From assembly GCA_032718475.1 (NCBI GenBank), contig JAUCBJ010006766.1, positions 62,001-126,000 on the forward strand: a stretch of DNA of 64,000 nucleotides. Direction: 5' to 3'. This DNA is from Nemertoderma westbladi (taxonomy: Eukaryota; Animalia; Xenacoelomorpha). The translations under genes were made by a program, and so were the position numbers. The notes under the pieces were generated by a model. It worked only from the letters and a program-made list of their open reading frames with translations, had not been told where the DNA came from and searched no databases. Shown here one piece after another: positions 3,601-57,527 of the stretch (position 1 is the first letter of the stretch; each line of letters starts with the position of its first letter).

Positions 3601-6600
3601 AGAAAAAGCCGTTTCTGTAACCTGCTCCTTACCTTAAATTGGTAACAACATCGTTTATTGTTTTGGTTAGAAGAAGCCGTCTCTGTAACCTGCTCCTTTC
3701 CCTTAATTGGTAACTAAAATGGTTACTAACACAAATCTTATTGGGCGAAGGTTGTTCGCGGTGGAAGATTGCCTTGCGGGCGAAGGTTTTCCCCGGGGTG
3801 AAGTGTGGACGCGGGCGAAGGTTGTACTCGGGCGAAGGTTGCACCCAACCTGTAGCCTGTAGTACAGTAGTCGGTATACTACTCATTCTGAGTAATGCGC
3901 ACCAGTACATGTTCATTCCCCCAGTAAAGCCCCCCCCCCCCCCCCCCCCCCCCAGTAAAGATGAGTAATTTAGAAAATCCGCTATTAAGAATTAATATGA
4001 TAAAATCATAGTTATAAAGTAAGTTACTGAAATTACAAATGAAATTGAATTAATAAATTAAATTAATATTATAATTAAACTGAGGGGACTGTTTTACATA
4101 CGGTCATTTAATTTGGCTTAATTGGAAAGATTAAAAATAATACTTTAATTATAACAGAAAGTTTTTATGTTTCAAGAAACTGCTATTCGCGTGTCATTTA
4201 TCCCCCTGTCATTTAGCTTTAAATCATTTACGTAATGATGTGTCATTTAAACTCATTAACATAATAATAGTTATACGGCATAGCAACTGGTCTGGTCGTC
4301 ATGCTGTCATGGCTTTTCAGTAAATTTAATAATATTTCTATTAAGAACAGTTAACTTATTCTTAAAAACTAGTACTATAGGCCCTACTACCATGGAATCA
4401 TAACAACATGTATTGATAACATAAAAGTATTGCAAAATGACAGTAGGCAAATTTCAATTCATGTCATTTAAATTAAGGGACGTAAAATTTAAATGTGCTT
4501 CCGTTTTTTAAATACCTTATTTACAAATCGGCGATTTCCATTTAGTTAAATGTCGCTTCGTGAAACAATCCCCCACCCCACACCATGGTATATTATTTTA
4601 TAAACTGCCACATTTTGAAATTGAACTAATTATGGTACCGGTACATTATTAAATACACTTTTTTGATTTATTGAAAGTAAAAAAAAAACGTTTTTTTGTT
4701 AAAAAAAATTAATGTTCTAATTAATTACATTTCAAAGTAATTTTCATGGTATTAATAATAATATTGAATTAAAATACATAGCCACCCACAGGTTATTTAG
4801 TTGTGACTCGGCAAGACAAGCTACGCAATATCCAATCACGTTGGTCAGTGTACCCAGAAAAAATTACATAATTCATTATATTACATCAGAGTCAGAGTGC
4901 CTATCTTATTTATGCTATCTTTCATTGGTATATATTGAACCCTGCTTGACAGGCAAGGCACAGCGACGTCGTCTAATCAAAGCACAGAAACCAAGGCAGG
5001 AGCCAGTGGGCGCCCCCCTGCAGTGGTCAATTGGGCTCCATTTCATTGCTTTACATTACAGACTATTAAACTGGTTGAGAGATTATATAATATAGGCCTA
5101 AGTAATAAGCTGGCTTTCTAAGAACATTGTATGATATTATGATGCCTTATCATGGGGGCGGGGGGGGGGGGGGGGGGGGGTGCCTGAGGGAATTATTGGT
5201 AGTGTGGCTGGAGGCCTGGCTACAACACTTTGATGGGGTATATGGTCTCCTTTCTACTACTTATTTTCTTTGGCAACCTGCCTGGGATAATGTGGATTGT
5301 ATCTGGTCTGGGGTCGGGCTCCTTTCCAAAGCAACTTCAACTTCGAATATTTTCTAATATTCGGTTTATTGCACTTGTCATTATAATTTTTTTAATTTAA
5401 CGGAACTTGACGATGGCAAAATGCTCTCAGAGTTAGTGTAAGTTGGAATCTCCACGGTAGGGTCCCGGGACCCTGGGACCCTACCCTCGCTACGCTAGTG
5501 CTAAGTTCATCCTTGGACATTTCTGATGAAATGAGATCGAATCTCAATGGGAATCTGCAAGGCGTAAGTGCCAAATATAGAAGGGAAAGGGTTGCGGAAT
5601 GTAAGGATGAGTTCCATAAAGGATTTATTGGCATTGCCAAACGCTTGTGGCCACATCTAAACGGAATTGTTGGTATATCAACCGGAGCGATGAAAATATA
5701 TTCGATCAACCTTGAGAAAAGATACACAAAAGGGATACCTATTGTCTCTTGTATCTATGCCTGTTCTGAGTTAGGAGGTCTATATATGGCATATTGTTTG
5801 CCTGGAATTATCCCAAACGACCAGTATGTGGCACATCCTGACTCCGCTTTCTTAGAGTTCATTCCAGTGGATAATGACAATGCAGTGGACGATGACATTG
5901 TGGGAACGAAATTCCTCGATCAACTGGAAGTTGGTTGTAAGTATGAGGTTGTAATAACTTCCCGTATGACTGGTCTTGTTCGATATAGAATGTTCGATGT
6001 CTTCCGAGTTACAGGATTATACAACCAGTTACCTATCCTTGACTACTGTTACCGAGACAACCAACTACTCAATGAATCCGGTGAAATGGTCACTGAGGAT
6101 GACATTGTTACCGCTCTATCAGATGTTATGAATGTTTGGGAGGACTGCCTAGTAAGGGATTACCTTGTTGTACAGAACAATCTATTTGTGTCTCTACTAG
6201 ATGGAGATACTAACGCTAATTATTATTATTTGTTGTTTATCGAAGTAACAAGATTGTTGACAGAAAATGATGCATCTCTTATCGACAAACATTTAATGAA
6301 TATTAGTTTGGGATACCGAAATTGTCGAGGTTCTGGTTCCATTGGTAAGGTTGAAATAAGACAAGTTCCTAATGGGTTTTTTAATAGTTACAAACAGCGA
6401 ATTCTAGAAGCCAATAAATTGACGTTTTCTGGACAATTTAAGATGCCCAGAATATTAGTTAACCCAGATAGGATTACTTTGATTCAAGATGTTCTTAACT
6501 CAATGTAGTAGTATCAATTTATATAGTTGCACCAAGTTAACATATCGGAACTACTCACCTAACAACTGGAATATCAACAGGATCCCCTGATGGACAACAG

Positions 6601-9600
6601 GTTAACATATCGCGCTACTCACCTAACAACTGGAATATCAACAGGATCCCCTGATGGACAACAGGTTAACATATCGGAACTACTCACCTAACAACTGGAA
6701 TATCAACAGGATCCCCAGATGGACAACAGGTTAACATATCGCGCTACTCACCTAACAACTGGAATATCAACAGGATCCTCTGATGGACAACAGGTTAACA
6801 TATCGCGCTACTCACCTAACAACTGGAATATCAACAGGATCCCCAGATGGACAACAGGTTAACATATCGCGCTACTCACCTAACAACTGGAATATCAACA
6901 GGATCCCCTGATGGACAACAGGTTAACATATCGTGCTACTCACCGAACAACTGGAATATCAACAGGATCCCCTGATGGACAACAGGTTAACATATCGCGA
7001 TACTCACCTAACAACTGGAATATCAACAGGATCCCCTGATGGACAACAGGTTAACATATCTCGACACGGTGGTTCAGGTGTGGTTACACGAGAGGTGGTT
7101 ACAACAGTGGGAGCAGGAGTTGTTGGTGGAATTGTTACATCTAAATAATAATCACCGATATTATATATATATATGGAACTAGAATTTTATTAAAATGCCG
7201 GTCATTCATGTCGGGCTATAAAATGTTGTCTAAATACCGGGAGCGGGGGGGGGGGGGGGGGGGGGGGTGGGAGAATCTACAAATAGTAAAGAAGTGTCTG
7301 ATTTTTATTTTGCAGGTAGATTTCATTAGTTTCCATTTTTCTGAAAAAAGTTGTTCTAAAATTCGTGTGATGCTCTTTTCGGTTTTCGAGAGATTTTTTA
7401 AGATCATTGGGTTACTGTAATGTCAGTTTTAAACCGCTACTTTCAAAACATTATGAAAAACAACTAACCGCAGTTGATTCTAATGGAATGCGCATATAAA
7501 ATTCTATAGGAAGTTTTTTTAACTTTTTGAAAATTTTAAAATTTTAAAATCATAAAATAGGCGAGTCAATCTAGCCGAAAAAGGGGGTCAACCCATAACA
7601 AATTCGCAATTCATCCAGACCAATTTTTTTTATTCTACATTACCTTGTTAAAACCCCCAAAAAAGTCTATAAAAGTATATTATGCGGATCACCTTCAATT
7701 TCCTGTTTCATTCCTTAGCAACATGGATTTTACATAGCAACAAGGGGTCTATTGGTGGGATTTTCTCCAAATTTGGTACAGACAAACTTTACTCTAATGA
7801 CTATCGATTGACAGAAGTATGCACTTCTATATGGTTACCAATTTAGTTTCCAGAGCAACGGAAATTTGTCTAATAATTTAACCATTTTTAATACCAATTT
7901 TGCTGGTACAATATAAGGGACCTTATTTACACAACTTATCTACTAAACGGGTGGATGTAACCTCGCCCATCGGATTTATCTACCTCAAAAACCCTTATCC
8001 CCAAAAAATTTATTCGTTATATGATAAACTATTGTGGTTTCTAAACTAAAACAAATAAATAAATTACACCTAAAATCAATAGAGCAATCATAATTTAATT
8101 ATGTGAAAAATCTTCACTAACATTAATGGAAATTATGAAATTTCCTTGCAGTGGAATTGTATAATTTTTTTACAACAGTTACCTTAATATAACGTGAAGT
8201 TTTTGATATATTTAAAAATTTGATGCGACTTCTAGTTTCCAAGATATAGCAATTAATGTGTAACACGCCAGTGTAAATATTACTAATTTCCCATTGAATC
8301 ACAGCTTATTGTAAAATTAATTAAATTATTCTGGAACATCACCAATTTGCTACTTACTTTTCCCTACTGTTCCTTTTGTTTGGCTTGTCTTATGCAAATT
8401 TAAGCAGAATTTCCACGAATAAACATATGATCCGCAAAATAAAATTTTGTAGACTTTTTTTTGGTCATTTATAAGGTAATATAGAATCCAAAATATGTGG
8501 TTCGGATTGATTGCGAAATACTTATGGGTTTTTTGCTAGATTGACTCGACTAAACGTCAACTGCGTTTGTCTCGGGTTGCTCCTGCTTACCCAAAATACA
8601 AACTACAAATATAAATAATTTGCAGAATACTGCACAATTAAAGAAAATTCACTAATGTATTCAATTCAATTATATTTCTAATAATATACAAATTCACATT
8701 AACAATTAATAACACTAATTAATTAATTAATTAATATATAGTTAAAATAATTAATTAGCTAATTAATAGCTCACAAAAAGCTAGTAATTTCTCGACAATA
8801 TGATTGATAATAATGCATATCATAAGTTTACCTGTGTCGCATCCGAGCACATCAATATGGATTCTCGCTCCGTTCTTAACATCTGCGATATAAATAATAA
8901 CTCCAGTGGCTAGAACTTCAACGTCACTGAAATCCTTGATGTCTTGTAACTGTTGGTTGAGTCCATCCCCGGTGTAATACTGAAATAAAGCATTTAATAA
9001 TGTTTGGAGTTCGGATGGGCCAATCTTGTATAATAGCTATGTAATCTACTACTATAAATCGTCCCTTTCCATTTTCCATTACAAAAGCTACACGTCATGT
9101 AACAGAGTGGCGCTGAACTAACTTTTCGTCGAAGAAAAATTCCAGGGCAGTTTCATTGCACATTTTGAGACACAAAAAGTGGTGATTGTATAATTATGTT
9201 ATTCCAATTACGCTGGACTTAGTAGACTCATTCGAACCGATAAATTTAGTGTGTCGTGTGTTTACTGCATCAAAACAACAGTAGTGATGGATTCTCGTGA
9301 TATTCCACGGAATTGACGGGGTTGACTCAACTCAACAACAATATGACAATGTGAAATAAACACATCACAAATATAATAATTGAATTTTCTCACAGATTAA
9401 ACATTCGGCGGCGCTTTATTCTAACAATAATAATAATTGATGTGTAGTTTGTGTAGACAGCATATGGAAGCAAAAGTATAGTGATATTTTATTGAGATTT
9501 TGCATAAAAAAGTTAGGCCAGGCCAATATAATATGATACCCAAAGAAACTTTAGTCGGGGAGACCTACACCTTTAGTATAAACTCAAGAATCAATTATTC

Positions 9601-12600
9601 GACTATTGTTTTGATGGTGTGGGACACCCACTAAATCGATCATTACAGTTCGAATGGGTCAATATTTAATTTCATACGTTGTTCACTATATGGCAATACA
9701 TTTAATATAATATCGGAATTTAATTATTTAGAGAAATACAGTATCAATTGTCAAAAGACTTTAATATTATAGTTTTGAAATGAGGTATTGAAGTGTCTTA
9801 AAAATCAGTTTCCATGGGAATTTATGTTTACAAAAAGTCAACTACTGATGTTACTTGTTGGCATAAAAATTGATTCATATTAACTATTACTAACAACAAA
9901 CCTACCTATTAATAGGCCAGGGTAGTTCTTGTCAAGAGTTGAGCCGTTCAAAAACACGATGTGGTTGTGTGTGTGTATATATGTATAACCATCCAATATC
10001 TCAAAAACTCAAGCAGGTACGCAAAAATTTTAATAACAAACTCTACATAAATGTTGGTTGCGCACAAGACTGTATATTTTTTGTGGCGTTTCGATCACGG
10101 GGTCACTGAAAAATAGCGGTTTTGAAAATTTAAAGTCGAATTTCACCGATTTCAACTCGTCGAGTATGCCCCAACTTTTTTATTAGGGCTATTCAGTCAT
10201 CTGAGCAACATATTTGAGCCTCAGAATCTTTTCAAATATCGCCGATCTCGCACAGAACGTCGCCAAAATTTGTTAGTCCGGCAAAAAAACGCACTAATTC
10301 GTCTAAAAGAGTAAATTATTGGTTGCAGAATAATATGATTCATAGATAGATAGATAATAGATTTATTTATACATTGTGTAAAAACAATAACAAATACACC
10401 AAACAATGTACCGGTATAAAGGTATTGTCCAACATAACATATATGATTACCCCTAAAGCTTTGCAGCTTATTTCCAAAAAATAGCGGTTTTGAAAATTTA
10501 AAGTCCAACTTTAAAGTTGCAGAATAATTTGATTCAACTAGAAAAGCCAGCAAGCTGGCTAAGGAGACCGTCCATATAGACAAACGTAGTGTTAGTTGTG
10601 TCCCTCCTCATTCATTATCAACTCCCTCACACCTAACATAGCAGTGAGTAACCTTATAGATTATTGTCATAGGATTCACTGGGAAGAGCTATTCAGCTGG
10701 AGGGGTAATACATTATACAAACTTACAGTTGATGTTTGATTACTGTCTAGGATAGAGTGAGAGAGTAATAAATTTAGCAAGTAATATACCTCTCTGCAGT
10801 TTGGGCCTATCCATTCAATAAATAGTAGTAGCTTACTAGGCCCACATGAGTACCAGCAGCTGGTGTTTCTATCGTTGAATTGATGGCAATTTTCGTGTTT
10901 TAATTTTCGCTCACTCAGGGTACTGGTTTGAGGGGCAGGTTCGTTTAAAGCCAGGTTGCTGGCTTTCTAGTAGTAAATTAAATAATATAACACATCTATA
11001 ACACATCTACCCAAAGAAACTTTAGTCGGGGAGACCAACACAAACTCTAGAATCAATTATTCGACTATTGTTTTGATGGTGTGCGACACCCACTAAATCG
11101 GTCATAGCGGTTCGAATGAGTCGACATTTTATTTCATACGTAAAATCAGTTTCCATGGGAATTTATAGTTTACAAAAATTCAATTACTGATGTTGTGGCA
11201 TAAAAAATTGATTTATATTAACTAATTATATTCTAATAAATTAATATTAATGTTTCTAAAAGAACCTACCATGGGTGTTTTGGCGCCGTCTAATAAAATA
11301 TCCCATGTATCTAATAGTTGGCCGTCGGTGTCGAATTGTTTTGTCTCTCCATCTTTATCTTCGAATTCCACGCGGAATTGTAGACCTGAGTTACTGGTTG
11401 CAACATCTGAAAATTTAATTTAATAATACTATATATCATCCTGAATATAGTGGAATAGGGAAAAAATTAACATTTTTTTGCATACCAATTTTTTTCCAAC
11501 ATAAAAACAGTATATACCAAGTTTTTGTCTCACAATATTAATGTTGAAGGAAGGGTGGCAGGTTGAGTGCCTGTCTTAAATTCTAATGGTTGTAGGTTCG
11601 AGCCCCGACAGGGTCCGCTCAGCCTATCACAAATGTTGGTTGATATAATGATTATCAGTTAAATTAGAGCAAAACTAGGGATATGAGTAGCGCCCACCCA
11701 TACCTTCGGGTAGCAGATAGGAGTAGCGCCCACCCCTACTATCGGGTAGCAGATAGGGGTAGCGCCCACCCCTACCTTCGGTTAGCAGATAGGAGTAGCG
11801 CCCAACCATACCTTCGGGTAGCAGATAGGAGTAGCGCCCACCCATACCTTCGGGTAGCAGATAGGAGTAGCGCCCACCACTACTATCGGGTAGCAGATAG
11901 GGGTAGCGCCCACCCCTACCTTCGGCTAGCAGATTGGGGTAGCGCCCACCCCTACCTTCGGGTAGCAGATAGGAGTAGCGCCCACCCCTACCCTCGGGTA
12001 GCAGATAGGGGTAGCGCCCATCCCTACCGTCGGGTAGCAGATAGGAGTAGCGCCCACCACTACCTTCGGCTAGCAGATTGGGGTAGCGCCCACCCCTACC
12101 TTCGGGTAGCAGATAGGAGTAGCGCCCACCCCTACCCTCGGGTAGCAGATAGGGGTAGCGCCCACCCCTACCGTCGGGTAGCAGATAGGAGTAGCGCCCA
12201 CCACTACTATCGGGTAGCAGATTGGGGTAGCGCCCACCCCTACCTTTGGGGTAGCAGATAGGAGTAACGCCTACCCCTACCTTCGGGTAGCAGATGAGTA
12301 GCGCCCACCAATACCTTCGGGTAGCAGATAGGAGTAGCGCCCACCCCTACCCTCGGGTAGCAGATAGGGGTAGCGCCCACCCCTACCTTCGGCTAGCAGA
12401 TTGGGGTAGCGCCCACCCCTACCTTCGGGTAGCAGATAGGAGTAGCGCCCACCCCTACCCTCGGGTAGCAGATAGGGGTAGCGCCCACCCCTACCTTCGG
12501 CTAGCAGATTGGGGTAGCGCCCACCCCTACCTTCGGGTAGCAGATAGGAGTAGCGCCCACCCCTACCCTCGGGTAGCAGATAGGGGTAGCGCCCACCCCT

Positions 12601-15600
12601 ACCTTCGGCTAGCAGATTGGGGTAGCGCCCACCCCTACCTTCGGGTAGCAGATAGGAGTAGCGCCCACCACTACTATCGGGTAGCAGATTGGGGTAGCGC
12701 CCACCCCTACCTTCGGGTAGCAGATTGGGGTAGCGCCCACCCCTACCTTCGGGTATCAGATAGGAGTAGCGCCCACCCCTACCTTCGGGTAGCAGATGAG
12801 TAGCGCCCACCAATACCTTCGGGTAGCAGATAGGAGTAGCGTCTACCCCAACTTTCGGGTAGCAGATAGGGGTAGAGCCCACTCCTACTATCGGGTAGCA
12901 GATAGGGGTAGCGCCCACCCCTACCTTCGGCTAGCAGATTGGGGTAGCGCTCACCCCTACCTTCGGGTAGCAGATGAGTAGCGCCCACCAATACCTTCGG
13001 GTAGCAGATAGGAGTAGCGTCTACCCCAACTTTCGGGTAGCCGATAGGGGTAGAGCCCACCCCTACCTTCGGCTAGCAGATTGGGGAAGCGCTCACCCCT
13101 ACCTTCGGGTAGCAGATGAGTAGCGCCCACCAATACCTTCGGGTAGCAGATAGGAGTAGCGTCCACCCCTACCTTCGGATAGCAGATAGTAGCGCCCACC
13201 CCAACTTTCGGGTAGCAGATATGAGTAGCGTCCACCCGTACCTTCGCGTATCAGATAGGGGTAGCGCCCACCCCTACTTTCGGGTAGCAGATAGGAGTAG
13301 CGCCTACCCCTACAATCGGATAGCAGATAGGAGTAGCGCCCACCCCTACCTTCTGGTAGCAGATAGGGGTAGCGCCCACCCCTACTTTCGGGTAGCAGAT
13401 AGGAGTAGCGCCCACCCCAACTTTCGGGTAGCAGATAGGAGTAGCGCCCAGCCCTACTTTCGGGTAGCAGAGAGTAGCGCCCACCCCTACCTTCGGGTAG
13501 CAGATAGGAGTAGCGTCTACCCCTACCTTTGTGTAGCAGATAGGAGTAGCGACCAGCCCTACCCTCGGGTAACAGATAAGAGTAGCGCCCACCCCCTTAC
13601 CTTCGGGTAGCAGATAGGAGTAGCGTCCACCCCTACCATCGGGTAGAAGATAGGAGTAGCGTCCACCCCTACCCTCAGGTAGCAGATAGTAGCGTCCACC
13701 CCTACCCTCGGGTAGCAGATAGGAGTAGCGTCCAGCCCTACCCTCGGGTAGCAGATAGGAGTAGCGTCCACCCCTATCCTTGGGTAGCAGATAGGAGTAG
13801 CGTCCACCCCTACCTTCTGGTAGCAGATAGGAGTAGCACCCACCACTACCTTCGGGTAGCATATAGGAGTAGCGTCCACCCCTACCTTCTGGTAGCAGAT
13901 AGGAGTAGCACCCACCCCTACCTTCGGGTAGCAGATAGGAGTAGCGTCCACCCCTACCTTCTGGTAGCAGATAGGAGTAGCACCCACCCCTACCTTCGGG
14001 TAGCAGATAGGAGTAGCGCCCACCCATACCTTCGGGTAGCAGATAGGAGTAGCGTCCACCCCTACCCTCGGGTAGCAGATAGGAGTAGCGTCCACCCCTA
14101 CCCTCGGGTAGCGGATAGGAGTAGCGTCCACCCCTACCTTCTGGTAGCAGATAGGAGTAGCGTCCACCCCTACTTTCGGGTAGCAGATATGGGTAGAGCC
14201 CACCCCTACCTTCGGGTAGCAGATAGGAGTAGCACCCACCCCTACCCTCGGGTAGCAGATACAAGTAGCGTCCACCCCTACCCTCGGGTAGCAGATAGGA
14301 GTAGCGTCCACCCCTAACTTCTGGTAGCAGATAGGAGTAGCGTCCACCCCTACTTTCGGGTAGCAGATAGGGGTAGAGCCCACCCCTACCTTCGGGTAGC
14401 ATATAGGAGTAGGGTCCACCCATACATTCGGGTAGCAGATAGGGGTAGAGCCCACCCCTACCTTCGGGTAGCATATAGGAGTAGCGCCCACCCCTACTAT
14501 CGGGTAGCAGATAGGAGTAGCACCCATCCCTACCTTCTGGTAGCAGATAGGAGTAGAGCCCACCCCTACCTTTGGGTAGCAGATAGGAGTAGCGCCCACC
14601 ACTACTATCGGGTAGCAGATAGCAGTAGCGCCCACCCCTACATTCTGGTAGCAGATAGGAGTAGCGTCCACCCCTACTTTCGGGTAGCAGATAGGGGTAG
14701 AGCCCACCCCTACCTTCGGGTAACATATAGGAGTAGCGTCCACCCCTACCTTCTGGTAGCAGATAGGAGTAGCACCCACCCCTACCCTCGGGTAGCAGAT
14801 AGGAGTAGCGCCTACCCCTACCCTCGGGTAGCAGATAGGAGTAGCGTCCACCCCTACCTTTGGGGTAGCATATAGGAGTAGCGCCCACCCATACCTTCTG
14901 GTAGCAGATAGGAGTAGCGTCCACCCCTACTTTCGGGTAGCAGATAGGGGTAGAGCCCACCCCTACCTTCGGGTAGCATATAGGAGTAGCGTCCACCCCT
15001 ACCTTCTGGTAGCAGATAGGAGTAGCACCCACCCCTACCCTCGGGTAGCAGATAGGAGTAGCGCCTACCCCTACCCTCGGGTAGCAGATAGGAGTAGCGT
15101 CCACCCCTACCTTCGTGTTTAGCAGCTATCGAAAGAGCAGCCTTCGGGTCGCCTCCGGCTTCGGTCGACTACTGTTTGCTTTGATCAATATGGATGGGTG
15201 ATATCAAAACCCGAAATTTTGAAAAAGATGCCTTACCTTTTTTTGTACTTCTAACGAAATTTTCAAAATATAAATATATAGTCCTCAAGTTTAATTTAAT
15301 AATATGGTGATTGAGTGGACGCATAGGGTTGGTAAAGACACATCACTTTTTTTTTAAATCTGAAAAATGACGTTCACATATTAATCATTTTTCAGATATC
15401 GCATTTTAGATGTTAAAACTATATATTCAGCAATCAAGTAGTTTAACTTCTTCATCTTGTTAATGTAAAGTTAAACACAAGCATTAATGATATGAGTTAA
15501 TACAAAAGGGTAGTACAGTCAACGATAGTAGGACTATGGGATTGGTGAATGAAATGATGAGTATAAAAATGAAAGCTCAAATTTAATTCCTAGGGTGGAT

Positions 15601-27600: not shown

Positions 27601-30600
27601 TTGCGCCCGTGACCTCGGTTGTACCACAATGTAGTACCGCACTCACCTGTATAATGAGACTTTTTGTGCACGTGACCTCGGTGGTACCACAATGTGGTAC
27701 CGCACTCACCTATATAATGATACTTTTTGCGCCCGTGACCTCGGTTGTACCACAATGTAGTACCGCACTCACCTGTATAATGAGACTTTTTGTGCCCGTA
27801 ACCTCGGTGGTACCACAATGTAGTACCGCACTCACCTGTATAATGAGACTTTTTGTGCCCGTGACCTCGGTGGTACCACAATGTAGTACCGCACTCACCT
27901 GTATAATGAGACTTTTTGTGCACGTGACCTCGGTGGTACCACAAGCGATGTTCTCCGCTTCCACACTAAAGCTCTCATCACTATTATCCTTTGATTTGAC
28001 TAAGTAGTAGCTACAGCCACCTTGGAATGTGTAGAACTTACCTGAAATATACAATAAATTAATAAATTAATAATTTGTTAGTATAAGGTAGATTGATTGC
28101 TGTTTGCACTTTGCACTTTTTTTGTTGCTTACTATTGATTGAGGCCTTTGATCTGCATCATTTGTATATATAAAGACTCACTCACCATCAAATGTTACGT
28201 AATGTGGATCACCCAAAGCCATACAAGTTGAATGACATTCGTTGTCTTGACACTGCCAATTCCTTCCCTGGCAGACGCAGGTGTTACAATCGATACGAAT
28301 TTCTTCGCCAGTTTCGAATTTTTCACCAGAATGGTAGCAAGGGCAGTTGTTCTGGTCAATACAGTGGTCGCCCTATTTAAACAAAAACAACTCAAAACTC
28401 ACTACCCACGCAAGAGGCAATTAGCTATAGGCAATTAACTATACAACCTGAACCTACAATTAGAATTAAGTTCTTGTTAATATTGATAAATTTATATACT
28501 AGCTAAAACCATCTAGCAGACTGTACCGGTGCAGACAACTACAAACGCTAAAAGTTGCTATAACTTTCGACTGTGTGGATAATTATTTTTAATATTAGGT
28601 CCAAACCTTTTATACTTTGATGATCTATTAATACTTATCAAACCGCCAATGTGAAAATTTTTTCAAGAATTTTAGAATAAAACTGGACTGGCTATAATGT
28701 TCTGAACATCTTTATTTCCACTCAGTGCAGTACACCAAAAACGACTAGTTTACACTTGAGTGTTTAAATTGATGACCTTTTAACCCCTATGACCCACACA
28801 CGCACATCGAACTATAAGGTAATCAATCTACTATAAGGCTTCCCTTTAGGTCTATCAGGTAAACAATGAATGTTAATGTCGACAGACAGTACCTCCAACA
28901 GCATCCCGTCTGGGCAAGTGCATCCTCCTAATATGGGAGTTTCACATCCTTCAGCTCCTTGCGGATACATACATGTTGCTACGCAACCACTGAACGCATC
29001 GTCATAAATCATGTTGTTAGGGCATTGAGCATCGCCGTCGCAACCGGATTCATCGCAACTCCATAGCCCCTCCAGACAGGTGCTAAAAAACGACAAAATG
29101 TACAGTGAGATAAAGCCTAAAATTATTGTGAGTTCGAGGGGCCTCTCCTACCACGTTGCGCGTCCCACACTGTATAGTGAGCTATATATGGACAACCATT
29201 ATTTTGTCTACACATACAGAACTACCTTCTAAACGCGGTAATTATTCGGTGTGAATTAACCCGATCCAAATGTATTTAAAACCTTATTCCTTATTCAGTA
29301 TAATCTAGCAGGTGATGCGCAGGATATCCCAAAACTTACCATGTGCTACATGCTTTATCCAAAATCTGCTCATTGAAATATTTTTGACCGTTGAACATGC
29401 AAGGACAGCGACTTTTGTCCACACAAATATCTTCTTGTTCATCTACAACCTGCAAAGTGCGAAATCAACGGATGGTTAACTGGTTAACGAATGTTTATAT
29501 AATGTCAAGTGATAGAGGTCTGTTAGTTTTATACTTTAAGCTGCAATTAAAAAGTATTATTTATTATTGTACTGTAATATTCGATTAACCACTTTTTCTC
29601 ACCTGGTCCCCACTGCAAACGCATCCGGCTAAGCAATGATTAGCACAGTAAGGGTCAGTGTTCGCTTTAGAAAGCGTGCCGCAGGTTAGTCCGCAAGGCT
29701 CGGAGCATTCTTTGAATGTTTGACTTGGTACGCTGCAGATAACAGCTGTAATAGATAGAATGAATGTCTCATTAAGGTACGCTGCAGGTAACAGCTGTAA
29801 TAAATATAATCAATGTTTCATTAAGGTACGCTGCAGGTAACAGCTGTAATAAATATAATCAATGTTTCATTAAGGTACGCTGCAGGTAACAGCTGTAATA
29901 AATATAATCAATGTTTCATTAAGGTACGCTGCAGGTAACAGCTGTAATAAATATAATCAATGTTTCATTAAGGTACGCTGCAGGTAACAGCTGTAATAAA
30001 TATAATCAATGTTTCATTAAGGTACGCTGCAGGTAACAGCTGTACTAAATAGAATGAATGTTTTATTAAGGTACGCTGCAGGTAACAGCTGTAATAAATA
30101 TAATCAATGTTTCATTAAGGTACGCTGCAGGTAACAGCTGTAATAAATATAATCAATGTTTCATTAAGGTACGCTGCAGGTAACAGCTGTACTAAATAGA
30201 ATGAATGTTTTATTAAGGTACGCTGCAGGTAACAGCTGTAATAAACATAATCAATGTTTCATTAAGGTACGCTGCAGGTAACAGCTGTACTAAATAGAAT
30301 GAATGTTTTATTAAGGTACGCTGCAGGTAACAGCTGTAATAAACATAATCAATGTTTCATTAAGGTACGCTGCAGGTAACAGCTGTACTAAATAGAATGA
30401 ATGTTTTATTAAGGTACGCTGCAGGTAACAGCTGTAATAAACATAATCAATGTTTCATTAAGGTACGCTGCAGGTAACAGCTGTAATAAATATAATCAAT
30501 GTTTCATTAAGGTACGCTGCAGGTAACAGCTGTAATAAATATAATCAATGTTTCATTAAGGTACGCTGCAGGTAACAGCTGTACTAAATAGAATGAATGT

Positions 30601-33600
30601 TTTATTAAGGTACGCTGCAGGTAACAGCTGTAATAAATATAATCAATGTTTCATTAAGGTACGCTGCAGGTAACAGCTGTAATAAATATAATCAATGTTT
30701 CATTAAGGTACGCTGCAGGTAACAGCTGTACTAAATAGAATGAATGTTTTATTAAGGTACGCTGCAGGTAACAGCTGTAATAAACATAATCAATGTTTCA
30801 TTAAGGTACGCTGCAGGTAACAGCTGTACTAAATAGAATGAATGTTTCATTAAGGTACGCTGCAGGTAACAGCTGTACTAAATAGAATGAATGTTTCATT
30901 AAGGTACGCTGCAGGTAACAGCTGTAATAAATATAATCAATGTTTCATTAAGGTACGCTGCAGGTAACAGCTGTAATAAATATAATGAATGTTTCATTAA
31001 GGTACGCTGCAGGTAACAGCTGTAATAAATAGAACGAATGTTTTATTAAGGTACGCTGCAGGTAACAGCTGTAATAAACATAATCAATGTTTCATTAAGG
31101 TACGCTGCAGGTAACAGCTGTACTAAATAGAATGAATGTTTCATTAAGGTACGCTGCAGGTAACAGCTGTACTAAATAGAATGAATGTTTTATTAAGGTA
31201 CGCTGCAGGTAACAGCTGTAATAAACATAATCAATGTTTCATTAAGGTACGCTGCAGGTAACAGCTGTACTAAATAGAATGAATGTTTCATTAAGGTACG
31301 CTGCAGGTAACAGCTGTACTAAATAGAATGAATGTTTTATTAAGGTACGCTGCAGGTAACAGCTGTAATAAACATAATCAATGTTTCATTAAGGTACGCT
31401 GCAGGTAACAGCTGTAATAAATATAATCAATGTTTCATTAAGGTACGCTGCAGGTAACAGCTGTACTAAATAGAATGAATGTTTCATTAAGGTACGCTGC
31501 AGGTAACAGCTGTACTAAATAGAATGAATGTTTCATTAAGGTACGCTGCAGGTAACAGCTGTACTAAATAGAATGAATGTTTTATTAAGGTACGCTGCAG
31601 GTAACAGCTGTAATAAACATAATCAATGTTTCATTAAGGTACGCTGCAGGTAACAGCTGTACTAAATAGAATGAATGTTTTATTAAGGTACGCTGCAGGT
31701 AACAGCTGTACTAAATAGATTGAATGTTTCATTAAGGTACGCTGCAGGTAACAGCTGTAATAAATATAATGAATGTTTCATTAAGGTACGCTGCAGGTAA
31801 CAGCTGTACTAAATAGAATGAATGTTTCATTAAGGTACGCTGCAGGTAACAGCTGTAATAAATAGAATGAATGTTTCATTAAGGTACGCTGCAGGTAACA
31901 GCTGTAAGAAATAGATTGAATGTTTCATTAAGGTACGCTGCAGGTAACAGCTGTAATAAATATAATGAATGTTTCATTAAGGTACGCTGCAGGTAACAGC
32001 TGTAATAAATAGATTGAATGTTTCATTAAGGTACGCTGCAGGTAACAGCTGTAATAAATAGATTGAAAGTTTCAACTCAACTTACCGCAATGTTCGGAGG
32101 TTGAGGGCAATTCTCTCCAATTGACTAGTATATCCCTCTTATTGCACTCGTGCGAGTAGGCCGACATTGCTGTGCAGTAAGACTGGGGGTTTCTGAAGAA
32201 GATAGAAATATAAAGTAACATTATTTACATTAAGTGCATTGTTGCACTGGATAAATAATACATTGCAATGATGCAGCGAAGCGACAGACATAAAAATATT
32301 CATTCGAGGATAAATTTCTGTCAATCGAACTCAATTTTACTAATTTTCACATCGATTTTCACATGGCATTTATCTTTTGATAAACAACATACAGTTGGGG
32401 AGAAAGGCACCTTTCAGAAACTTATAACAGTTGAACTATATAGAGGGTAACTACTCCTACATGAACGGATCACGACATCTACACTAATCTGATTTATTTT
32501 CTTTGATGACTTACACCAAACTTACTCATTTCCTTCAGCTGCACACAAACTTACCCATTTCCTTCCGCTGCACACAAACTTACCCATTTCCATCCGCTGC
32601 ATACAAACTTACCCATTTCCTTCAGCTGCACACAAACTTATCCATTTAGTTCCGCTGCACACAAACTTACTCATTTCCTTCCGCTGCACACAAACTTACC
32701 CATTTCTTTCCGCTGCACACAAACTTACCTATTTCCTTCCGCTGCACACAAACTTACCCATTTCCTTCCGCTGCACACAAACTTACCCATTTCCTTCCGC
32801 TGCACACAAACTTACCCATTTCCTTCCGCTGCACACAAACTTACCCATTTCCTTCAGCTGCACACAAACTTACCCATTTCGTTCCGCTGCACACAAACTT
32901 ACTCATTTCCTTCCGCTGCACACAAACTTACTCATTTCCTTCCGCTGCACACAAACTTACCCATTTCCTTCCGCTGCACACAAACTTACCTATTTCCTTC
33001 CGCTGCACACAAACTTACCCATTTCCTTCCGCTGCACACAAACTTACCCATTTCCTTCCGCTGCACACAAACTTACCCATTTCCTTCCGCTGCACACAAA
33101 CTCACCCATTTCCTTCAGCTGCACACAAACTTACCCATTTAGTTCCGCTGCACACAAACTTACTCATTTCCTTCCGCTGCACACAAACTTACCCATTTCT
33201 TTCCGCTGCACACAAACTTACCCATTTCCTTCCGCTGCACACAAACTTACCCATTTCCTTCCGCTGCACACAAACTTACCCATTTCCTTCAGCTGCACAC
33301 AAACTTACCCATTTCGTTCCGCTGCACACAAACTTACTCATTTCCTTCCGCTGCACACAAACTTACCCATTTCTTTCCGCTGCACACAAACTTACCCATT
33401 TCCTTCCGCTGCACACAAACTTACCCATTTCCTTCCGCTGCACACAAACTTACCCATTTCCTTCAGCTGCACACAAACTTACCCATTTCGTTCCGCTGCA
33501 CACAAACTTACTCATTTCCTTCCGCTGCACACAAACTTAACCATTTCCTTCAGCTGCACACAAACTTACCCATTTCGTTCCGCTGCACACAAACTTACTC

Positions 33601-36600
33601 ATTTCCTTCCGCTGCACACAAACTTACCCATTTCCTTCCGCTGCACACAAACTTACTCATTTCCTTCCGCTGCACACAAACTTACCCATTTCCTTCCGCT
33701 GCACACAACCTTACCCATTTCCTTCAGCTGCACACAAACTTACCCATTTCCTTCCGCTGCACACAAACTTACCCATTTCCTTCCGCTGCACACAAACTTA
33801 CCCATTTCCTTCCGCTGCACACAAACTTACCCATTTCCTTCAGCTGCACACAAACTTACCCATTAAGTTCCGCTGCACACAAACTTACCGATTTCTTCCG
33901 CTGCACACAAACTTACCCATTTCCTTCCGCTGCACACAAACTTACCCATTTCCTTCCGCTGCACACAAACTTACCCATTTCCTTCCGCTGCACACAAACT
34001 TACCCATTTCCTTCCGCTGCACACAAACTTACCCATTTCCTTCCGCTGCACACAAACTTACACATTTCCTTCCGCTGCACACAAACTTACCCATTTCCTT
34101 CAGCTGCACACAAACTTACCCATTTCCTTCCGCTGCGCACAAACTTACCCATTTCCTTCAGCTGCACACAAACTTACCCATTTAGTTCCGCTGCACACAA
34201 ACTTACCGATTTCCTTCCGCTGCACACAAACTTACCCATTTCCTTCCGCTGCACACAAACTTACCCATTTCCTTCCGCTGCACACAAACTTACCCATTTC
34301 CTTCCGCTGCACACAAACTTACCCATTTCCTTCCGCTGCACACAAACTTACCCATTTCCTTCCGCTGCACACAAACTTACACATTTCCTTCCGCTGCACA
34401 CAAACTTACCCATTTCCTTCAGCTGCACACAAACTTACCCATTTCCTTCCGCTGAACACAAATTTACCCATTTCCTTCCGCTGCACACAAACTTACCCAT
34501 TTCCTTCCGCTGCACACAAACTTACTCATTTCCTTCAGCTGCACACAAACTTACTCATTTCCTTCCGCTGCACACAAACTTACCCATTTCCTTCCGCTGC
34601 ACATAAACTTACCCATTTCCTTCCGCTGCACACAAACTTACACATTTCCTTCCGCTGCACACAAACTTACCCATTTCTTTCCGCTGCACACAAACTTACC
34701 CATTTCCTTCCGCTGCACACAAACTTACCCATTTCCTTCCGCTGCACACAAACTTACCCATTTCCTTCAGCTGCACACAAACTTACCCATTTCGTTCCGC
34801 TGCACACAAACTTACTCATTTCCTTCCGCTGCACACAAACTTACCCATTTCTTTCCGCTGCACACAAACTTACCCATTTCCTTCCGCTGCACACAAACTT
34901 ACCCATTTCCTTCCGCTGCACACAAACTTACCCATTTCCTTCCGCTGCACACAAACTTACACATTTCCTTCCGCTGCACACAAACTTACCCATTTCCTTC
35001 AGCTGCACACAAACTTACCCATTTCCTTCCGCTGAACACAAATTTACCCATTTCCTTCCGCTGCACACAAACTTACCCATTTCCTTCCGCTGCACACAAA
35101 CTTACTCATTTCCTTCAGCTGCACACAAACTTACTCATTTCCTTCCGCTACACACAAACGTACCCATTTCCTTCCGCTGCACATAAACTTACCCATTTCC
35201 TTCCGCTGCACACAAACTTACCCATTTCCTTCCGCTGCACACAAACTTACCCATTTCCTTCCGCTGCACACAAACTTACACATTTCCTTCCGCTGCACAC
35301 AAACTTACCCATTTCCTTCAGCTGCACACTAACTTACCCATTTCCTTCCGCTGAACACAAATTTACCCATTTCCTTCCGCTGCACACAAACTTACCCATT
35401 TCCTTCCGCTGCACACAAACTTACTCATTTCCTTCAGCTGCACACAAACTTACTCATTTCCTTCCGCTGCACACAAACCTACCAATTTCCTCCGCTGCAC
35501 ATAAACTTACCCATTTCCTTCCGCTGCACACAAACGTACCAATTTCCTTCAGCTGCACACAAACTTACCCATTTCCTTCCGCTGCACACAAACTTACCCA
35601 TTTCCTTCCGCTGCACACAAACTTACTCATTTCCTTCAGCTGCACACAAACTTACTCATTTCCTTCCGCTGCACACAAACTTACCCATTTCCTTCCGCTG
35701 CACATATACTTACCCATTTCCTTCCGCTGCACACAAACGTACCAATTTCCTTCAGCTGCACACTAACTTACCCATTTCCTTCCGCTGAACACAAATTTAC
35801 CCATTTCCTTCCGCTGCACACAAACTTACCCATTTCCTTCCGCTGCACACAAACTTACTCATTTCCTTCAGCTGCACACAAACTTACTCATTTCCTTCCG
35901 CTGCACACAAACTTACCCATTTCCTTCCGCTGCACATAAACTTACCCATTTCCTTCCGCTGCACACAAACGTACCAATTTCCTTCAGCTGCACACAAACT
36001 TACCCATTTCCTTCCGCTGCACACAAACTTACCCATTTCCTTCCGCTGCACACAAACTTACCCATTTCCTTCCGCTGCACACAAACTTACCAATTTCCTT
36101 CCGCTGCACACAAACTTACACATTTCCTTCCGCTGCACACAAACTTACCCATTTCCTTCAGCTGCACACAAACTTACCCATTTCCTTCCGCTGAACACAA
36201 ATTTACCCATTTCCTTCCGCTGCACACAAACTTACCCATTTCCTTCCGCTGCACACAAACTTACTCATTTCCTTCAGCTGCACACAAACTTACTCATTTC
36301 CTTCCGCTGCACACAAACTTACCCATTTCCTTCCGTTGCACACAAACTTACCCAATTCCTTCCGCTGCACACAAACTTACCCATTTCCTTCAGCTGCACA
36401 CAAACTTACCCATTTCCTTCCGTTGCACACAAACTTACCCATTTCCTTCCGTTGCACACATGTCCCACAAACAATTCTTGTAAAAGGGTTCCACATCCAC
36501 AGCCTCGTGGCAGCTACTGAATGGTTCCCCGTTAAGAATTTCGCAATATTCTTTGGCAGCGTCTTTTTTCTGATTTAAAAAATAAATAAAGTAACAATAA

Positions 36601-39600
36601 TAATATATTGGTAAGATTAGATAAAGATTGAGATGAGTCCTTTAAAGTTTCAAGTAAGATAGAACATAGGAATATGAAAGTTAGAAGCATTGACTGCTTA
36701 CGTGTAAACGTCTCTATGGGCTACAAAGTGATATCTTTTATTTTAATGTTAAATATTTAAACTTGAAAGCTCATGTGACCATGTATCCGTAACATAAATA
36801 GATAATAATAAATATTGTTAGATATTATCTATACCTGTGAATTAGTACTGCAGCTGTCGGAGTTGGAGGGCGTGAAGGCGTCATTACAACTGGATACAGC
36901 CAACCACGATGTTGCGAAGGTATCGACAATGGTCTCTGTGTCACCGTTGCTGGTAGTGAAGTCGTTCTTCACATTGTAATCGTAGGTTCCACATAATCCA
37001 GTTACCTACAACAAAAATAATTTTGTTAATTTTTAATGTCTTTTCCAAAATAAAATATAGGGCCAATACTATACTATATTATATACTAATATATAATTTT
37101 AACAACACTTAGTGTTTTAGTCATTATACAATTAATTAAGGTGTAAAGGAAACTTTTAAATTAGTTGGTTTACATAATTTACTTTACAAATAAACCCACC
37201 CACCACTAAAATAATATTCGTACCAAATAATTTTACCATAAAGCCTGTATTATTTAATCCTTTCGCAAATAAAGTAAAACACTTTACATGCATAATAAAA
37301 ACCACGCCACCAAAGTTAACTTTAAGATACCAAATAATTATTTCCAACAAAATATGTAACGAAAATTATGTAAACGTGCTGTTATGCTACAACTCTTACA
37401 CCATATAAGTTGAGTAATTCAGAAACAATTTTTATAGAACTTTAACATTTTCCCCTACCTTGTCGTTATGATCTTGTCCGAGAGTAATGTAGATTCGGTT
37501 AACTTTATCGTAGAGAAGGCTGATGCCGGGAGCCCGGACATGGAAGAAGGTAGAGGAGGCTGATCGGACAGTCACCTCACCTTCCGTGAATGGGAAAGCA
37601 GTCACATCGCTACCACCTGTAAACCGAGATTTAAATAAAATAAATAGGCCTAACTCTTGTCTTTTTATTACTGTAAGTTTTGATATTTAAGTCTGTAAAA
37701 ACAATCGAATTTTAGTTGTATTACCAGTAATCACTTTGGGCATGGTTATCTCACGTGCATAGAGTTTGGTAGGCTACTAACCAATATTTACAACCGATCC
37801 TCGCAGTACGACACTAGTAGTGTTATACTGTAGAACAACAGCTTTGAGGCAGTTCGTTCGCATGTCACCTTCACAGTCGTACGACTGAATGCGTATCTCT
37901 AAGATATCATCCTCATGCTACAAATTGTAAAAAGAGTTCGTTAAAATCAATTTTATATCGAAACAATTATGTTGTACCATTGGTATGGCCCATGTGAAGT
38001 ATACCAGACTTTCTGCCGTTATTTTTCACTTTGCAGTTACCCCCATGTGAAGAATACCAGGTTTTCACCAAAACCACAGGTTACAGAAGGGCTGAATCTA
38101 ACCAAAACAATAAACAAATTAGTATATGTACAGGTTATAAGACAGAAATAAGCGATATAAAACATTTAATAAAGATAAATTAAAAAAAAATAAAAAATCT
38201 TCATATATAAAATTCCAATAAAAATTCGACCGAAAAGTTAAATCCTGGTATTCTTCACATGGGCGATTGGTCTCGCTATTTATGAATGCGTATCTCTAAG
38301 ATATCATCCTCATGCTACAAATTGTAAAAAGAGTTCGTTAAAATCAATTTTATATCGAAACAATTATGTTGTACCATTGGTATCGCTATTTATACACACA
38401 GTATGTAAACAAGGTCAATAATAAACTGTTAGTTTAAAAATAACTACCTCCATTAAACATTATAAAACTAACTTTGACTTACTGTACGCATTATCTTCAA
38501 GAACTATGTGAATTGCATAAACTTGTAAGTGTCTGATGAAAAGAAACAATTTAATTATTTATAATAAACAATGAAATGCTATCTTTGTTTATTAAATTTG
38601 AACGATATACATGCACAGCGCCTTTCGACTTTTGAATTTTGGCGATATTTTTCAATTCAATGACGTTTCAAAAGATTAAGGAGTCTTATAGGTTTTAGCT
38701 TAGGGATAACTAGTTTACAGCTTTAATCGCGTGTAATTTCTTAAAAGATTTACTAAATCTTTATAACTTACTGTTGCTAATACATATTCGCAAGTACCAA
38801 AGAAGTTGTAGAAGATACCGTCAAATGTAGCGAAATGTCCGTGTCCCAGAACACCACAGGTCGAATCGCACTTGTGTTGGGAGCACTGCCATTTAGCCCC
38901 CATACAGGTGCTGCAAAAGTAATACGATGTTTAAGTGATTGACGGGACATAAAGAGTAACAAATATGAGTATTACATATTGCATCCATATAAATAGACAT
39001 ACAAAGGCTAACTGTAACACCAGTAAGGAAGTAAAGCCCGCACCAATGTGTTATATAGGCCCGTTTCCGCGCTGCCGTTTTATGCACGATTTTCTGCCAT
39101 TTTTTAAACATTTTTTTCAAGATTTTTTTGACTCTTAAAGTCCTTGTACCCATCATGCATTAAGTAACACGTACCATGTGTTGCATCCTTGGCTTATTTT
39201 ATCGCCTTTCGTGAATTCTTCGTCCCTATAACGACAGGGACAATCGGCTCTCTCGACACAGAGACCGGTAGTGGGGTTCAGATACATGCCTTCAGCACAG
39301 AAGCAACCCGGTACAGTTTCGTCCAGACAGGAGCGTGGCAGCTCGGTATCGACGTAGGCGCAGGTCTTGTGGCAACGAGGACCGTAATCTGTGTATTCCA
39401 TTAGATCGCTTTCGCATCTCTTCTCTGCGTGAAATAAAATTAACATTTAATCATAGGAAATAAGGTATAAAATATACCTTATTAAAATAAATATCAACAG
39501 CATCAAAAAATTACCTAATCTCAAATGTCGATATATTTTTTTCATTAACGTCACCTCCCAGATTTTACATCTATAAAACGGTAATTGTTAAAATGCGATT

Positions 39601-45569: not shown

Positions 45570-47717
45570 GTTGGTGGGATTATGACAATCTTCGTTCTTT
45601 TACGATGTTCTTTGAATTGAGTTTGATATTGAAAAATTTACCTTTTAAAAGATTCTGTGGAAAATAACTGCTGGTGAATTTCTACTGTCACCAGCAGGAA
45701 TAACTGCGCCAAGGATAACTTTGCCTTTATACATCGCACTAGAACACATCTGTGGCCCTGTTCGATTTTTCGAATGTTCGGGAAGGCCTTCAGAGATAGA
45801 GAATTCATAAAAACGGGCTTGGTGGGAGGCCACACCAGTTTGTCAACTTCATAAAAATCGCATTGTTTTCTCTCCGTAGGACCAACAAGTTTTACTAAAG
45901 CGTTCATGGCAACAGGTTGGTGCTTCCCACTCAGAGAATCACTTGGTATTGGTACTCTATGCTTTCTAATAAACTGGTGTTTGCATCTCGCTTCGATTAT
46001 AATTCATCCTTAATCACTATGCCATCTTAATTAAGCTAGGCTCCTTCTTAGCCGAAGTATAAATCGATAATTTATATATGTTCGCGCACATCCGTGAAGC
46101 AGTCGTACAAACTCCATCCCCCCGAACGGAGGATGAAATATTGCGCAATTCGTATTCAATTCAATTTTATTAAGTCAAACGGGTCGATGACTGAAGTTGT
46201 CTGGTCATTGCATGAATCGTCAAACTTAACTTTTCTGACATACTATTTTTATTTTACTGCAGTATACGACTATCACTCATGGATAAGAATAAAAAAAATT
46301 GTTTTAAAGTTAAAAAATAAAAGTTTAAAAAGTTTAAAAAAGTTAAAAAATCAAAAATTAGGAGTTGTAAAGCAGTTTTTTTATTAATTAGAAATGGAAA
46401 CATATTTAGAATTCAGTTTCACACAAACTACAACTTGTTAACATGGCATTTTTTAAATAGATAACAATATCATGTTTATTGCGCATCGCTATTATATCCA
46501 AGTCATCAGTGTGAATGTTAATGCTCTCACTTATATGTAATTTTGTTACAAGGGATCTATCTGCCAATAGTTCGGTTCATGCGCTTTTAAAGACATTTAG
46601 ACATTTAGGTTATATTTAGTATGAGTCTTAATTAGCAATGTGTATGATGTTTTAATTGTTAAGTTTTGGTGTTCATTTCTACAAGTGTACGATGCATATT
46701 GAGTGCCAAGTAAACCGTACCATTTACCTTAATATATAATTTATATGGGACCGATTAAACATTAATCATATTATTGCATACTTCTCTGGAAGAAAGTGTT
46801 CCCACTAATAAATTAAAATTCGGTCGGGTCCTTATTGGTTGATAATGTTATATTATTTGTTGCCTTGGCAACGATTATTTAAGGCTCACTGGGACATTTC
46901 CTACGCCCGGTAGCGTTATTTTAATTTAGTAGAAATGCGTGATGGGTAGCGAGGCAGGTAGATAGGTACACGGCTGGTACAGCGTCTACGAGAGACAACT
47001 ATTATTACGCAATTACTTTTTCTATGACTAATACGTATTAAAATGTTTCACATTTACGTTTTTAGCTATTAGTTTCTGTACCCATCTTTAAATGTTATCA
47101 ATAAGGTGATGGAATGACCGCAGGTTCACATGAATAACATATATGTATATGAATAATTTTTTTTATTTTGTTTTTAATCATTTATTTACTTTAAATAATA
47201 ATTTTAATAATACATATTATCAGAGGGGGGACTTTCGAGACAATAGAAATTCATCCCTCTCCAGGGAAAATCGACGCAAATAACAGCTGATTACTCTCAA
47301 AAATAAAACTGTATCCTGTTCTATTGACTTTCGTTTATTGCTTTGGTTATAATAACCTGTGTCCATATAATAAAATGTATATACACTTATAATATAGACT
47401 AGCCTTCTTTCTGAAGCATAAATTGAGAATTTTAATTTAACTAGTTGCAAAACTATAACTGCAATTTTTCTAATATATATATATTTTTTCTATAAACTGA
47501 GTCATATCTAACTAACCTTAAATTTGAACGATATACATGCACAGACAGTGCCTTTCGACTTTGGAATTTTACCTATATTTTTCAATTCAATGACTTTTCA
47601 AAATAAAGTTTTTGTTCTTATTGTTTCCGTACGTGCAAGTATACTACTCCCTAAATAAAATATATTAAACGATAATAATATATAACTAATAAATGGTTTG
47701 AAATATAAACTAAATTA

Positions 47718-57511: not shown

Positions 57512-57527
57512 AATGAAATGAAATGAA

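What the first reader, a model, noticed from the sequence alone, without database searches (positions are those of the whole stretch)
6536..38392. Five tandem duplications anchored on exon-intron junctions of one gene: over 200 decoy splice sites
Seen: five independent repeats (64 bp x8, 63 bp x21, 49 bp x48, 29 bp x~136, 110 bp x2) each have a unit made of exon end plus intron end, so the GT donor or AG acceptor and its exonic context are reiterated into the intron. In every case the frame-correct site is the terminal copy next to the intact exon, and most decoys lead quickly to a stop. Five of the eight non-coding tandem repeats I found in this gene are junction-centred. My rough expectation is 10-15% each (75 junctions x ~60 bp over ~35 kb). 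Inference: either a mechanism seeds repeats at splice junctions (transcription/R-loop- or splicing-coupled repair, RNA-templated or rolling-circle copying), or the arrays persist because they tune splicing/NMD of a very large secreted protein. Null model: a minisatellite-prone genome where exon-overlapping duplications survive only if they span a junction.
Basis: partly seen in the sequence, partly recalled or inferred. Interest (0 to 1): 0.82.

Follow-up and report, generated by a model that had tools for sequence, protein, structure and literature searches.

The report
Mirage repeats in SCO-spondin-like gene
In one large secreted-protein gene of an invertebrate, five exon edges are copied head-to-tail with their splice signals (2 to 136 times) into the neighbouring introns; this repeat type is already known from lancelets ("mirages") and human genes, and the copies are likely tolerated by-products because splicing likely uses only the copy next to the exon.

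Summary
Observation confirmed. In a minus-strand SCO-spondin-like gene (36 exons, 2,260 codons, no stop), 5 of 75 splice junctions are duplicated: donors 64 bp x8, 63 bp x21, 29 bp x136; acceptors 49 bp x48 and 110 bp x2 (split by a later MITE). That gives 208 decoys with intact GT/AG; 206 would bring in a premature stop. Short-read contigs of two samples support four of the five; one spliced contig skips the 110-bp decoy. The class is known: lancelet mirages; human F7, CBS, 6-16, LMNB2, PDGF minisatellites. The scan has noted it before in at least eight other windows of this genome and in other genomes (unchecked notes). Enrichment here is modest and depends on the null: P 0.003 (5 of 8), 0.018 (5 of 10), 0.034 (5 of 15), and 0.12-0.38 if the introns were 150-250 nt when duplicated. 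No unit ends at a splice site, which argues against lariat or circular-RNA templating. Best reading: ordinary local duplication, survival of junction-spanning copies, minisatellite expansion. One oddity: the 49-bp intron has only 37 non-repeat bases, so that array may now be needed.

The parts
602..45570 (-). Host gene: SCO-spondin-like / invertebrate gel-forming-mucin-like protein (3x VWD-C8-TIL, LDLa repeats, Pro/Thr/Gly repeat exon); 36 exons 43381..602 modelled, 5' exons above 43663 uncertain, 3' end runs off the window
   Evidence: 0 stops in 2,260 codons; Pfam; best hits named SCO-spondin-like/mucin in lancelet, crinoid, acorn worm, fish at 33-36% identity; spliced contigs of run X4 match 8 listed exon pieces
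6536..7060 (-). Donor array 64 bp x8: 53 nt exon end + 11 nt intron; true donor after 7008; 7 decoys, all GT; read-through stop one codon after the true donor; 11-nt identity at the two array ends
   Evidence: not checked in reads or against homologs (0 alignments span it)
26622..27944 (-). Donor array 63 bp x21: 46 nt exon + 17 nt intron; true donor after 27899; decoys 27836 and 27773 in frame without stop, a TAG variant in copy 4 closes the frame
   Evidence: unit at many-fold depth and joined to the unique distal flank in X1, X2, X3; 30 of 39 homolog alignments have <=2 gap columns at the true junction
29713..32074 (-). Acceptor array 49 bp x48: about 30 nt intron + 19 nt exon; true acceptor at 29745; 47 of 47 decoys stop at codon 8; array makes up all but 37 nt of the 2,340-nt intron; each unit puts a YTNAY motif 27 nt before the next AG, the 37-nt head has none in range
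   Evidence: X2 contig joins the unit to the 37-nt head and donor
32517..36460 (-). Donor array 29 bp x136: 20 nt exon + 9 nt intron; true donor after 36439; 133 GT decoys, 88 of 135 identical to the true 9-mer; read-through stop one codon after the true donor
   Evidence: X1, X2, X3 contigs break on entering it and depth rises; C8 domain continues across the true junction (profile 1-35, then 38-63)
37886..38392 (-). Acceptor duplication 110 bp x2 (78 nt intron + 32 nt exon); true acceptor 37917, decoy 38314 (stop at codon 13); one copy is interrupted by a MITE
   Evidence: X4 contig 25 joins 38772 to 37917, skipping the decoy
37987..38265 (.). High-copy MITE with terminal inverted repeats and an 8-bp target-site duplication, inserted into the 110-bp pair after the duplication
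   Evidence: summed contig depth 4e5 against about 33 in flanks (X1)

Best explanation
Five exon-intron junctions of this gene are tandemly duplicated with their GT or AG; they are likely 'mirage' minisatellites, made by ordinary local DNA duplication, kept because a junction-spanning copy leaves one intact exon edge, likely expanded by slippage or unequal exchange, and likely ignored by the spliceosome, which would use the exon-adjacent copy. Shown: the units, their junction content, the intact reading frame through the exon-adjacent copies, presence in DNA of two samples, and one spliced contig skipping one decoy. Inferred: (1) seeding by slippage/microhomology or end-joining repair at the DNA level (end homology 11, about 9 imperfect, 2, 1 and 0 nt); (2) purifying selection removes duplications wholly inside exons, and short introns put much of the tolerated target near junctions; (3) concerted expansion (7-28 distinct unit types per array, mixed along the array); (4) first-donor scanning and exon definition select the true site, and NMD would clear rare decoy use (206 of 208 decoys give a premature stop).
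For: Class definition matches PMC3087553 section 16 and PMC3902484 section 17 (passages) and human F7/CBS/6-16/LMNB2/PDGF cases (PMC1557585 abstract, discussion, passages), where the most upstream donor is used. Unit ends lie 9-78 nt inside the intron in 5 of 5. Five unrelated units, none found elsewhere in the window. The gene also holds 10 non-junction non-coding arrays, so the region is repeat-prone in general. Excess disappears if introns were short: expected 4.1 or 3.0 of 8 with introns capped at 150 or 250 nt, P 0.38 and 0.12. No special conservation of decoy cores in the 136-copy array (1.4 variant alleles per core position against 0.7 elsewhere). X4 uses the true acceptor at 37917.
Against: With today's intron lengths the junction share exceeds chance under every list tried: 5 of 8 P 0.003, 5 of 10 P 0.018, 5 of 15 P 0.034, 4 of 9 P 0.043, 4 of 7 large arrays P 0.009, 5 of 8 after removing transposon-borne sequence P 0.005, cap 400 nt P 0.037. 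GC weighting does not remove it (P 0.017-0.032 for the 10-array list). The short-intron null is an assumption; no ortholog was available. Cores of the 63- and 49-bp decoys carry 0 variants (against 0.24-0.25 per position elsewhere; too few positions to tell). RNA evidence covers 1 of 5 junctions, and it is unknown whether that individual carries the duplication. The 49-bp array may no longer be neutral.
Confidence: 0.7

Rival explanations
1. Junction-biased seeding: in this lineage duplications start preferentially near exon edges (for example breaks or fork stalling at exon-edge chromatin, R-loops or co-transcriptional spliceosome pausing), then expand as ordinary minisatellites.
For: Excess of about 2.5-3.5-fold under present intron lengths, not removed by GC weighting. 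Donor units carry only 9-17 nt of intron. Unchecked scan notes report the same pattern in at least 8 other windows of this genome (a lead, not support).
Against: Window chosen after the fact; excess lost under a short-intron null; mean intron share of the unit 0.41, close to the 0.5 of random placement; unchecked notes on an octopod and an annelid report no genome-wide excess.
Confidence: 0.2
2. The arrays are kept because they regulate: decoy use sends part of the message to NMD or adds 21/42 residues to the third VWD domain, with copy number as a dial.
For: 206 of 208 decoys give a premature stop; 2 are in frame. In human CBS and 6-16 the nearest pseudo-sites are used.
Against: Stops after the phase-2 donors follow from the GTRA consensus; decoy cores mutate freely in the 29-bp array; the one informative spliced contig skips the decoy; lancelet mirages showed no aberrant mRNA.
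Confidence: 0.06
3. RNA-templated origin: reverse-transcribed lariat, circular RNA or spliced message copied back by a rolling circle.
For: None beyond the junction content of the units.
Against: Each unit holds both exon and intron across an unspliced junction, and 0 of 5 unit ends fall on a splice site; no poly-A tract or exon-exon joint in any unit (consensus units).
Confidence: 0.03
4. Assembly artefact.
Against: Units at many-fold depth and joined to unique flanks in 3 of 3 DNA runs from 2 samples; 7-28 distinct unit variants per array.
Confidence: 0.01

Closest known systems
Lancelet 'mirage' minisatellites (Adh3, globins BflGb6/BflGb9, troponin C, PGBD5). Seen: passages of PMC3087553 and PMC3902484; Canestro 2002 only as cited there (not held)
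   Same: Tandem unit spans an exon-intron boundary, at donors and at acceptors; unit sizes 29-110 bp lie inside the reported 10-160 bp; several per gene; end copies differ from the array consensus; splicing apparently normal.
   Different: Not a lancelet gene (best lancelet hit 36% identity); copy numbers up to 136 against 2-7 in the globin and PGBD5 passages; five in one gene; one intron is almost wholly array; length and somatic instability untested here.
Human junction-spanning VNTRs: F7 IVS7 (37 bp, 5-9), CBS intron 13 (15-20), 6-16 intron 2 (25 pseudo-sites), LMNB2 (100 bp, 10-15), PDGF intron 4 (81 bp, 16-18). Seen: abstract, discussion and passages of PMC1557585
   Same: First unit contains the real donor; identical pseudo-donors follow; most upstream site is used (F7, LMNB2, PDGF), the next two also in CBS and 6-16.
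   Different: One per gene and all donors in those examples; here three donor and two acceptor arrays in one gene.
Intron gain by tandem duplication (Rogers model; PMC3265369, PMC4974935). Seen: search listing with abstract starts only, and the model as summarised in PMC3087553
   Same: Duplicated splice signals in a tandem array; an intron body made of repeats (49-bp array).
   Different: Here the duplicated signal is an existing splice site and no new intron is shown; the 49-bp intron sits at the same phase-1 C8/TIL position as the intron in the first module of this protein, so it looks old.
SCO-spondin / invertebrate gel-forming mucin-like proteins (PMC4948705, passages)
   Same: [quoted passage not shown]
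   Different: Thrombospondin repeats and cystine knot not seen in the part inside the window; long TPPPG repeat exon; orthology not tested by a tree.

Membership tests
Mirage minisatellite | Head-to-tail repeat whose unit spans an exon-intron boundary | tested here: met
   5 of 5; the 110-bp pair only once the MITE is left out
Mirage minisatellite | Splice signals reiterated in many units | tested here: met
   GT 8/8, 21/21, 134/136; AG 48/48, 2/2
Mirage minisatellite | Regular splicing not disturbed | tested here: inconclusive
   1 of 5 junctions crossed by a spliced contig, true site used; X4 laid nothing on the 63/49 stretch; carrier status of that individual unknown
Mirage minisatellite | Length instability between alleles or tissues | not testable with these tools
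   Only short-read contigs; depth is not a copy number and differs between two runs of one sample
Mirage minisatellite | Concerted evolution inside the array, end copies partly excluded | tested here: met
   True copy differs from consensus at 1, 1, 1 and 4 positions; variants shared by many internal units
Intron gained by tandem duplication | New intron whose both splice sites come from the duplicated unit | tested here: not met
   Each array-bearing intron keeps a separate unique partner site outside the array; orthologous gene structures not available
SCO-spondin | VWD-C8-TIL units plus LDLa repeats | tested here: met
   Pfam hits on single exons (some below the curated cut-off because exons are domain pieces); names of best hits
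SCO-spondin | Thrombospondin-1 repeats and orthology (feature recalled) | not tested
   Gene runs off the window; no tree built

The most novel reading that the evidence does not exclude
This species has a genome-wide mutational bias that seeds tandem duplications at exon edges, so its introns are being rebuilt from their own splice junctions; the 49-bp intron, with only 37 unique bases and its branch-point motif supplied by the repeat, would be a case where the array has become indispensable and where the spliceosome picks the last of 48 acceptors.
Probability: 0.2. Interest if true: 0.6.

Novelty: new member of a known kind. Interest (0 to 1): 0.2.

Why it matters
As a class it is known. Its value is as test material: the cited lancelet paper calls the mechanism of mirage origin unclear, and none of my 7 paper searches returned a genome-wide test of junction enrichment. 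A genome dense in such arrays makes that test easy, and the 48-acceptor intron is a natural experiment on 3' splice-site choice, where first-AG scanning and exon definition predict opposite ends of the array. In practice such arrays mislead gene prediction (the in-frame 63-bp array reads as a 300-codon ORF).

Tried and rejected
Whole genome not held, so no genome-wide permutation. Homolog word-search with one VWD exon found nothing (weak, only proteins up to 2,000 aa). Metagenome scan for related loci: 395 pattern matches, 0 confirmed. Atlas search gave only generic TIL clusters. Run search listed no holder on record as RNA; X4 was read as RNA only because its contigs join exon to exon. X4 laid 0 records on 27815-29815 (can be a filter effect), so use of the 63-bp donor and 49-bp acceptor is unobserved. 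Contig depth rejected as copy number. GC-biased seeding rejected as sole cause. A putative 30-nt exon at 1234-1205 was dropped (phase mismatch; versus 20), and exon 37917 was shortened to 37782. No older degenerate junction duplications were found among 75 junctions (needs >=16 nt match across the site). The organism was not identified: best protein hits are only 33-36% identical and scattered over bilaterians. Canestro 2002 could not be read; no supplements were read, and the mirage alignments in the supplements of PMC3087553 and PMC3902484 may bear on the comparison.
Full report
Host gene. The window is animal DNA (exons 48% GC). Reading the minus strand gave 36 exons from 43381 to 602 with GT-AG introns and one open frame of 2,260 codons with 0 stops. 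Single-exon Pfam scans give three VWD-C8-TIL units and three LDLa hits (20 of 28 exons had a hit). Against 128 HMMER hits the model aligns over 1,200-1,480 residues at 33-36% identity to proteins named SCO-spondin-like or mucin in lancelets, a crinoid, an acorn worm, two fishes and an annelid (7 clusters looked up). PMC4948705 (passages) describes such invertebrate mucin-like relatives of SCO-spondin. The organism is not identified. Run X4, listed as 'DNA?', has contigs that join exon to exon at the modelled borders (records 25 and 26), so I read it as a transcriptome (inference).

The observation. TRF finds the four arrays at the stated coordinates. The fifth is two 104-nt copies 397 bp apart; a MITE with inverted ends, an 8-bp target duplication and a summed depth near 4e5 against about 33 sits inside one copy, and without it the pair is an exact 110-bp tandem. 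A search with all 75 junctions finds these 5 duplicated and no other. Decoys with intact dinucleotide: 7, 20, 133 donors and 47, 1 acceptors, 208 in all. The exon-adjacent copy keeps the frame in all five; homolog alignments run through four of the junctions without a unit-sized gap (27 of 38, 35 of 40 and 30 of 39 alignments with at most 2 gap columns; at the 49-bp site only 3 of 39, because of a 1-5 residue offset in those shown; none spans the 64-bp site). 206 of 208 decoys would add a premature stop; the exceptions are the first two 63-bp decoys. For the 64- and 29-bp donors the stop is the next codon and is simply the phase-2 GTRA consensus, so it is no sign of design.

Reality of the arrays. 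In 3 of 3 DNA runs (2 samples) the 63- and 49-bp units lie at many times flank depth, contigs join the 63-bp unit to the unique distal intron in all three, and an X2 contig joins the 49-bp unit to the 37-nt intron head. Contigs of all three break on entering the 29-bp array and at 37915, the edge of the 110-bp duplication. Copy numbers and the 64-bp array were not checked. RNA: X4 record 25 goes from 38772 straight to 37917, skipping the decoy at 38314; whether that animal carries the duplication is unknown, and X4 laid nothing on the second stretch.

More than chance? I collapsed arrays to one unit, barred placements wholly inside coding sequence and computed the chance that a unit spans a junction (8.6% for 29 bp, 14.5% for 49, 18.6% for 64, 30% for 110). 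GC weighting changes little. If introns are capped at 150, 250 or 400 nt, as if today's long introns grew later, P becomes 0.38, 0.12, 0.037. So there is a real but modest local excess, sensitive to assumed intron history, in a window selected for it.

Mechanism. Every unit crosses an unspliced junction and ends 9-78 nt inside the intron; none ends at a splice site, which speaks against lariat, circular or spliced RNA templates. End homologies range from 11 nt (64-mer) and about 9 imperfect (49-mer) to 2, 1 and 0, the mix expected from slippage and end-joining (established knowledge; inference for this locus). Arrays hold 7, 10, 11 and 28 distinct unit types with shared variants mixed along them, as in ordinary minisatellite turnover. 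Decoy cores are not protected in the largest array (1.4 against 0.7 variant alleles per position); in the 63- and 49-bp arrays the core has no variants, on too few positions to mean much. Site choice is inferred from human F7, where the most upstream of several identical donors is used (PMC1557585 abstract and discussion), and from exon definition for the acceptors (recalled).

One oddity. The intron at 32085-29746 has only 37 bases outside the array, while the other introns of the gene are 121 nt or longer. The head has no YTNAY motif at branch-point distance, whereas each unit places one 27 nt before the next AG, the true one included (24 of 37 true acceptors have such a motif, so it is common). 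The intron matches in phase and position the C8/TIL intron of the first module, so it looks old. The likeliest story is that the original body was deleted after expansion, leaving an array that cannot collapse to one copy; this is inference and untested.

Comparison. PMC3087553 (passages) defines mirages as minisatellite-like tandem duplications of exon-intron boundaries, at both donors and acceptors, with 10-160 bp units, normal splicing and unclear origin; PMC3902484 adds troponin C and PGBD5; PMC1557585 lists five human genes. The present arrays meet the structural definition; splicing neutrality is seen at 1 of 5 sites and instability is untested. I reached this reading from recall before the paper searches (note). 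Scan notes (unchecked) report the same class in at least 8 other windows of this genome, some of 38-63 kb, and in 5 other genomes, two of them without genome-wide excess; they are leads only.

Verdict. Interest 0.2; 0.6 if a genome-wide seeding bias at exon edges is shown (probability about 0.2).

Noticed in passing
window 2411-6508 (+): Intronless GH3-family gene nested on the opposite strand in the 6.3-kb intron (Pfam GH3 positions 4-231 and 231-304 in two halves), split by a 2,155-bp insertion (3346-5500) with an 8-bp target duplication and short inverted ends, hAT-like. Its stop lies 28 nt from the end of the 64-bp array, so the array would be in its 3' UTR.
   Followed up: partly
window 54852-61032 (+): BEL/Pao retrotransposon ORFs (DUF1759, Peptidase_A17, DUF5641), in several pieces.
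   Followed up: partly
window 16067-17180 (-): Coding 15-bp repeat, about 74 TPPPG units in a 1,317-nt exon; mucin-like region rich in Pro/Gly.
   Followed up: no
window 11680-15115: 36-bp x96 intronic array, 59% GC, not at a junction; no other copy in the window.
   Followed up: partly
window 19513-19809 and 19842-20440: Perfect 48-bp x6 palindromic array beside an inverted-repeat element with 54/108-bp subterminal repeats.
   Followed up: partly
window 3587-3714, 18858-18914, 21364-21422, 22141-22197, 43936-44030: A dispersed high-copy short element family recurs in many introns.
   Followed up: partly
window 48591-48678 and 48683-49053: Two 14-bp GC-rich arrays in opposite orientation, back to back.
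   Followed up: no
window 43663-45570 (-): A signal-peptide-like first exon (45569-45502) and an exon at 44208-44105 do not phase-match their neighbours in my model; small exons may be missing.
   Followed up: partly
window 27915-29798: X1/X2 contigs differ from the window at 13-16 letters and 7 gap positions over 1.9 kb, i.e. a second haplotype that also runs into both arrays.
   Followed up: partly
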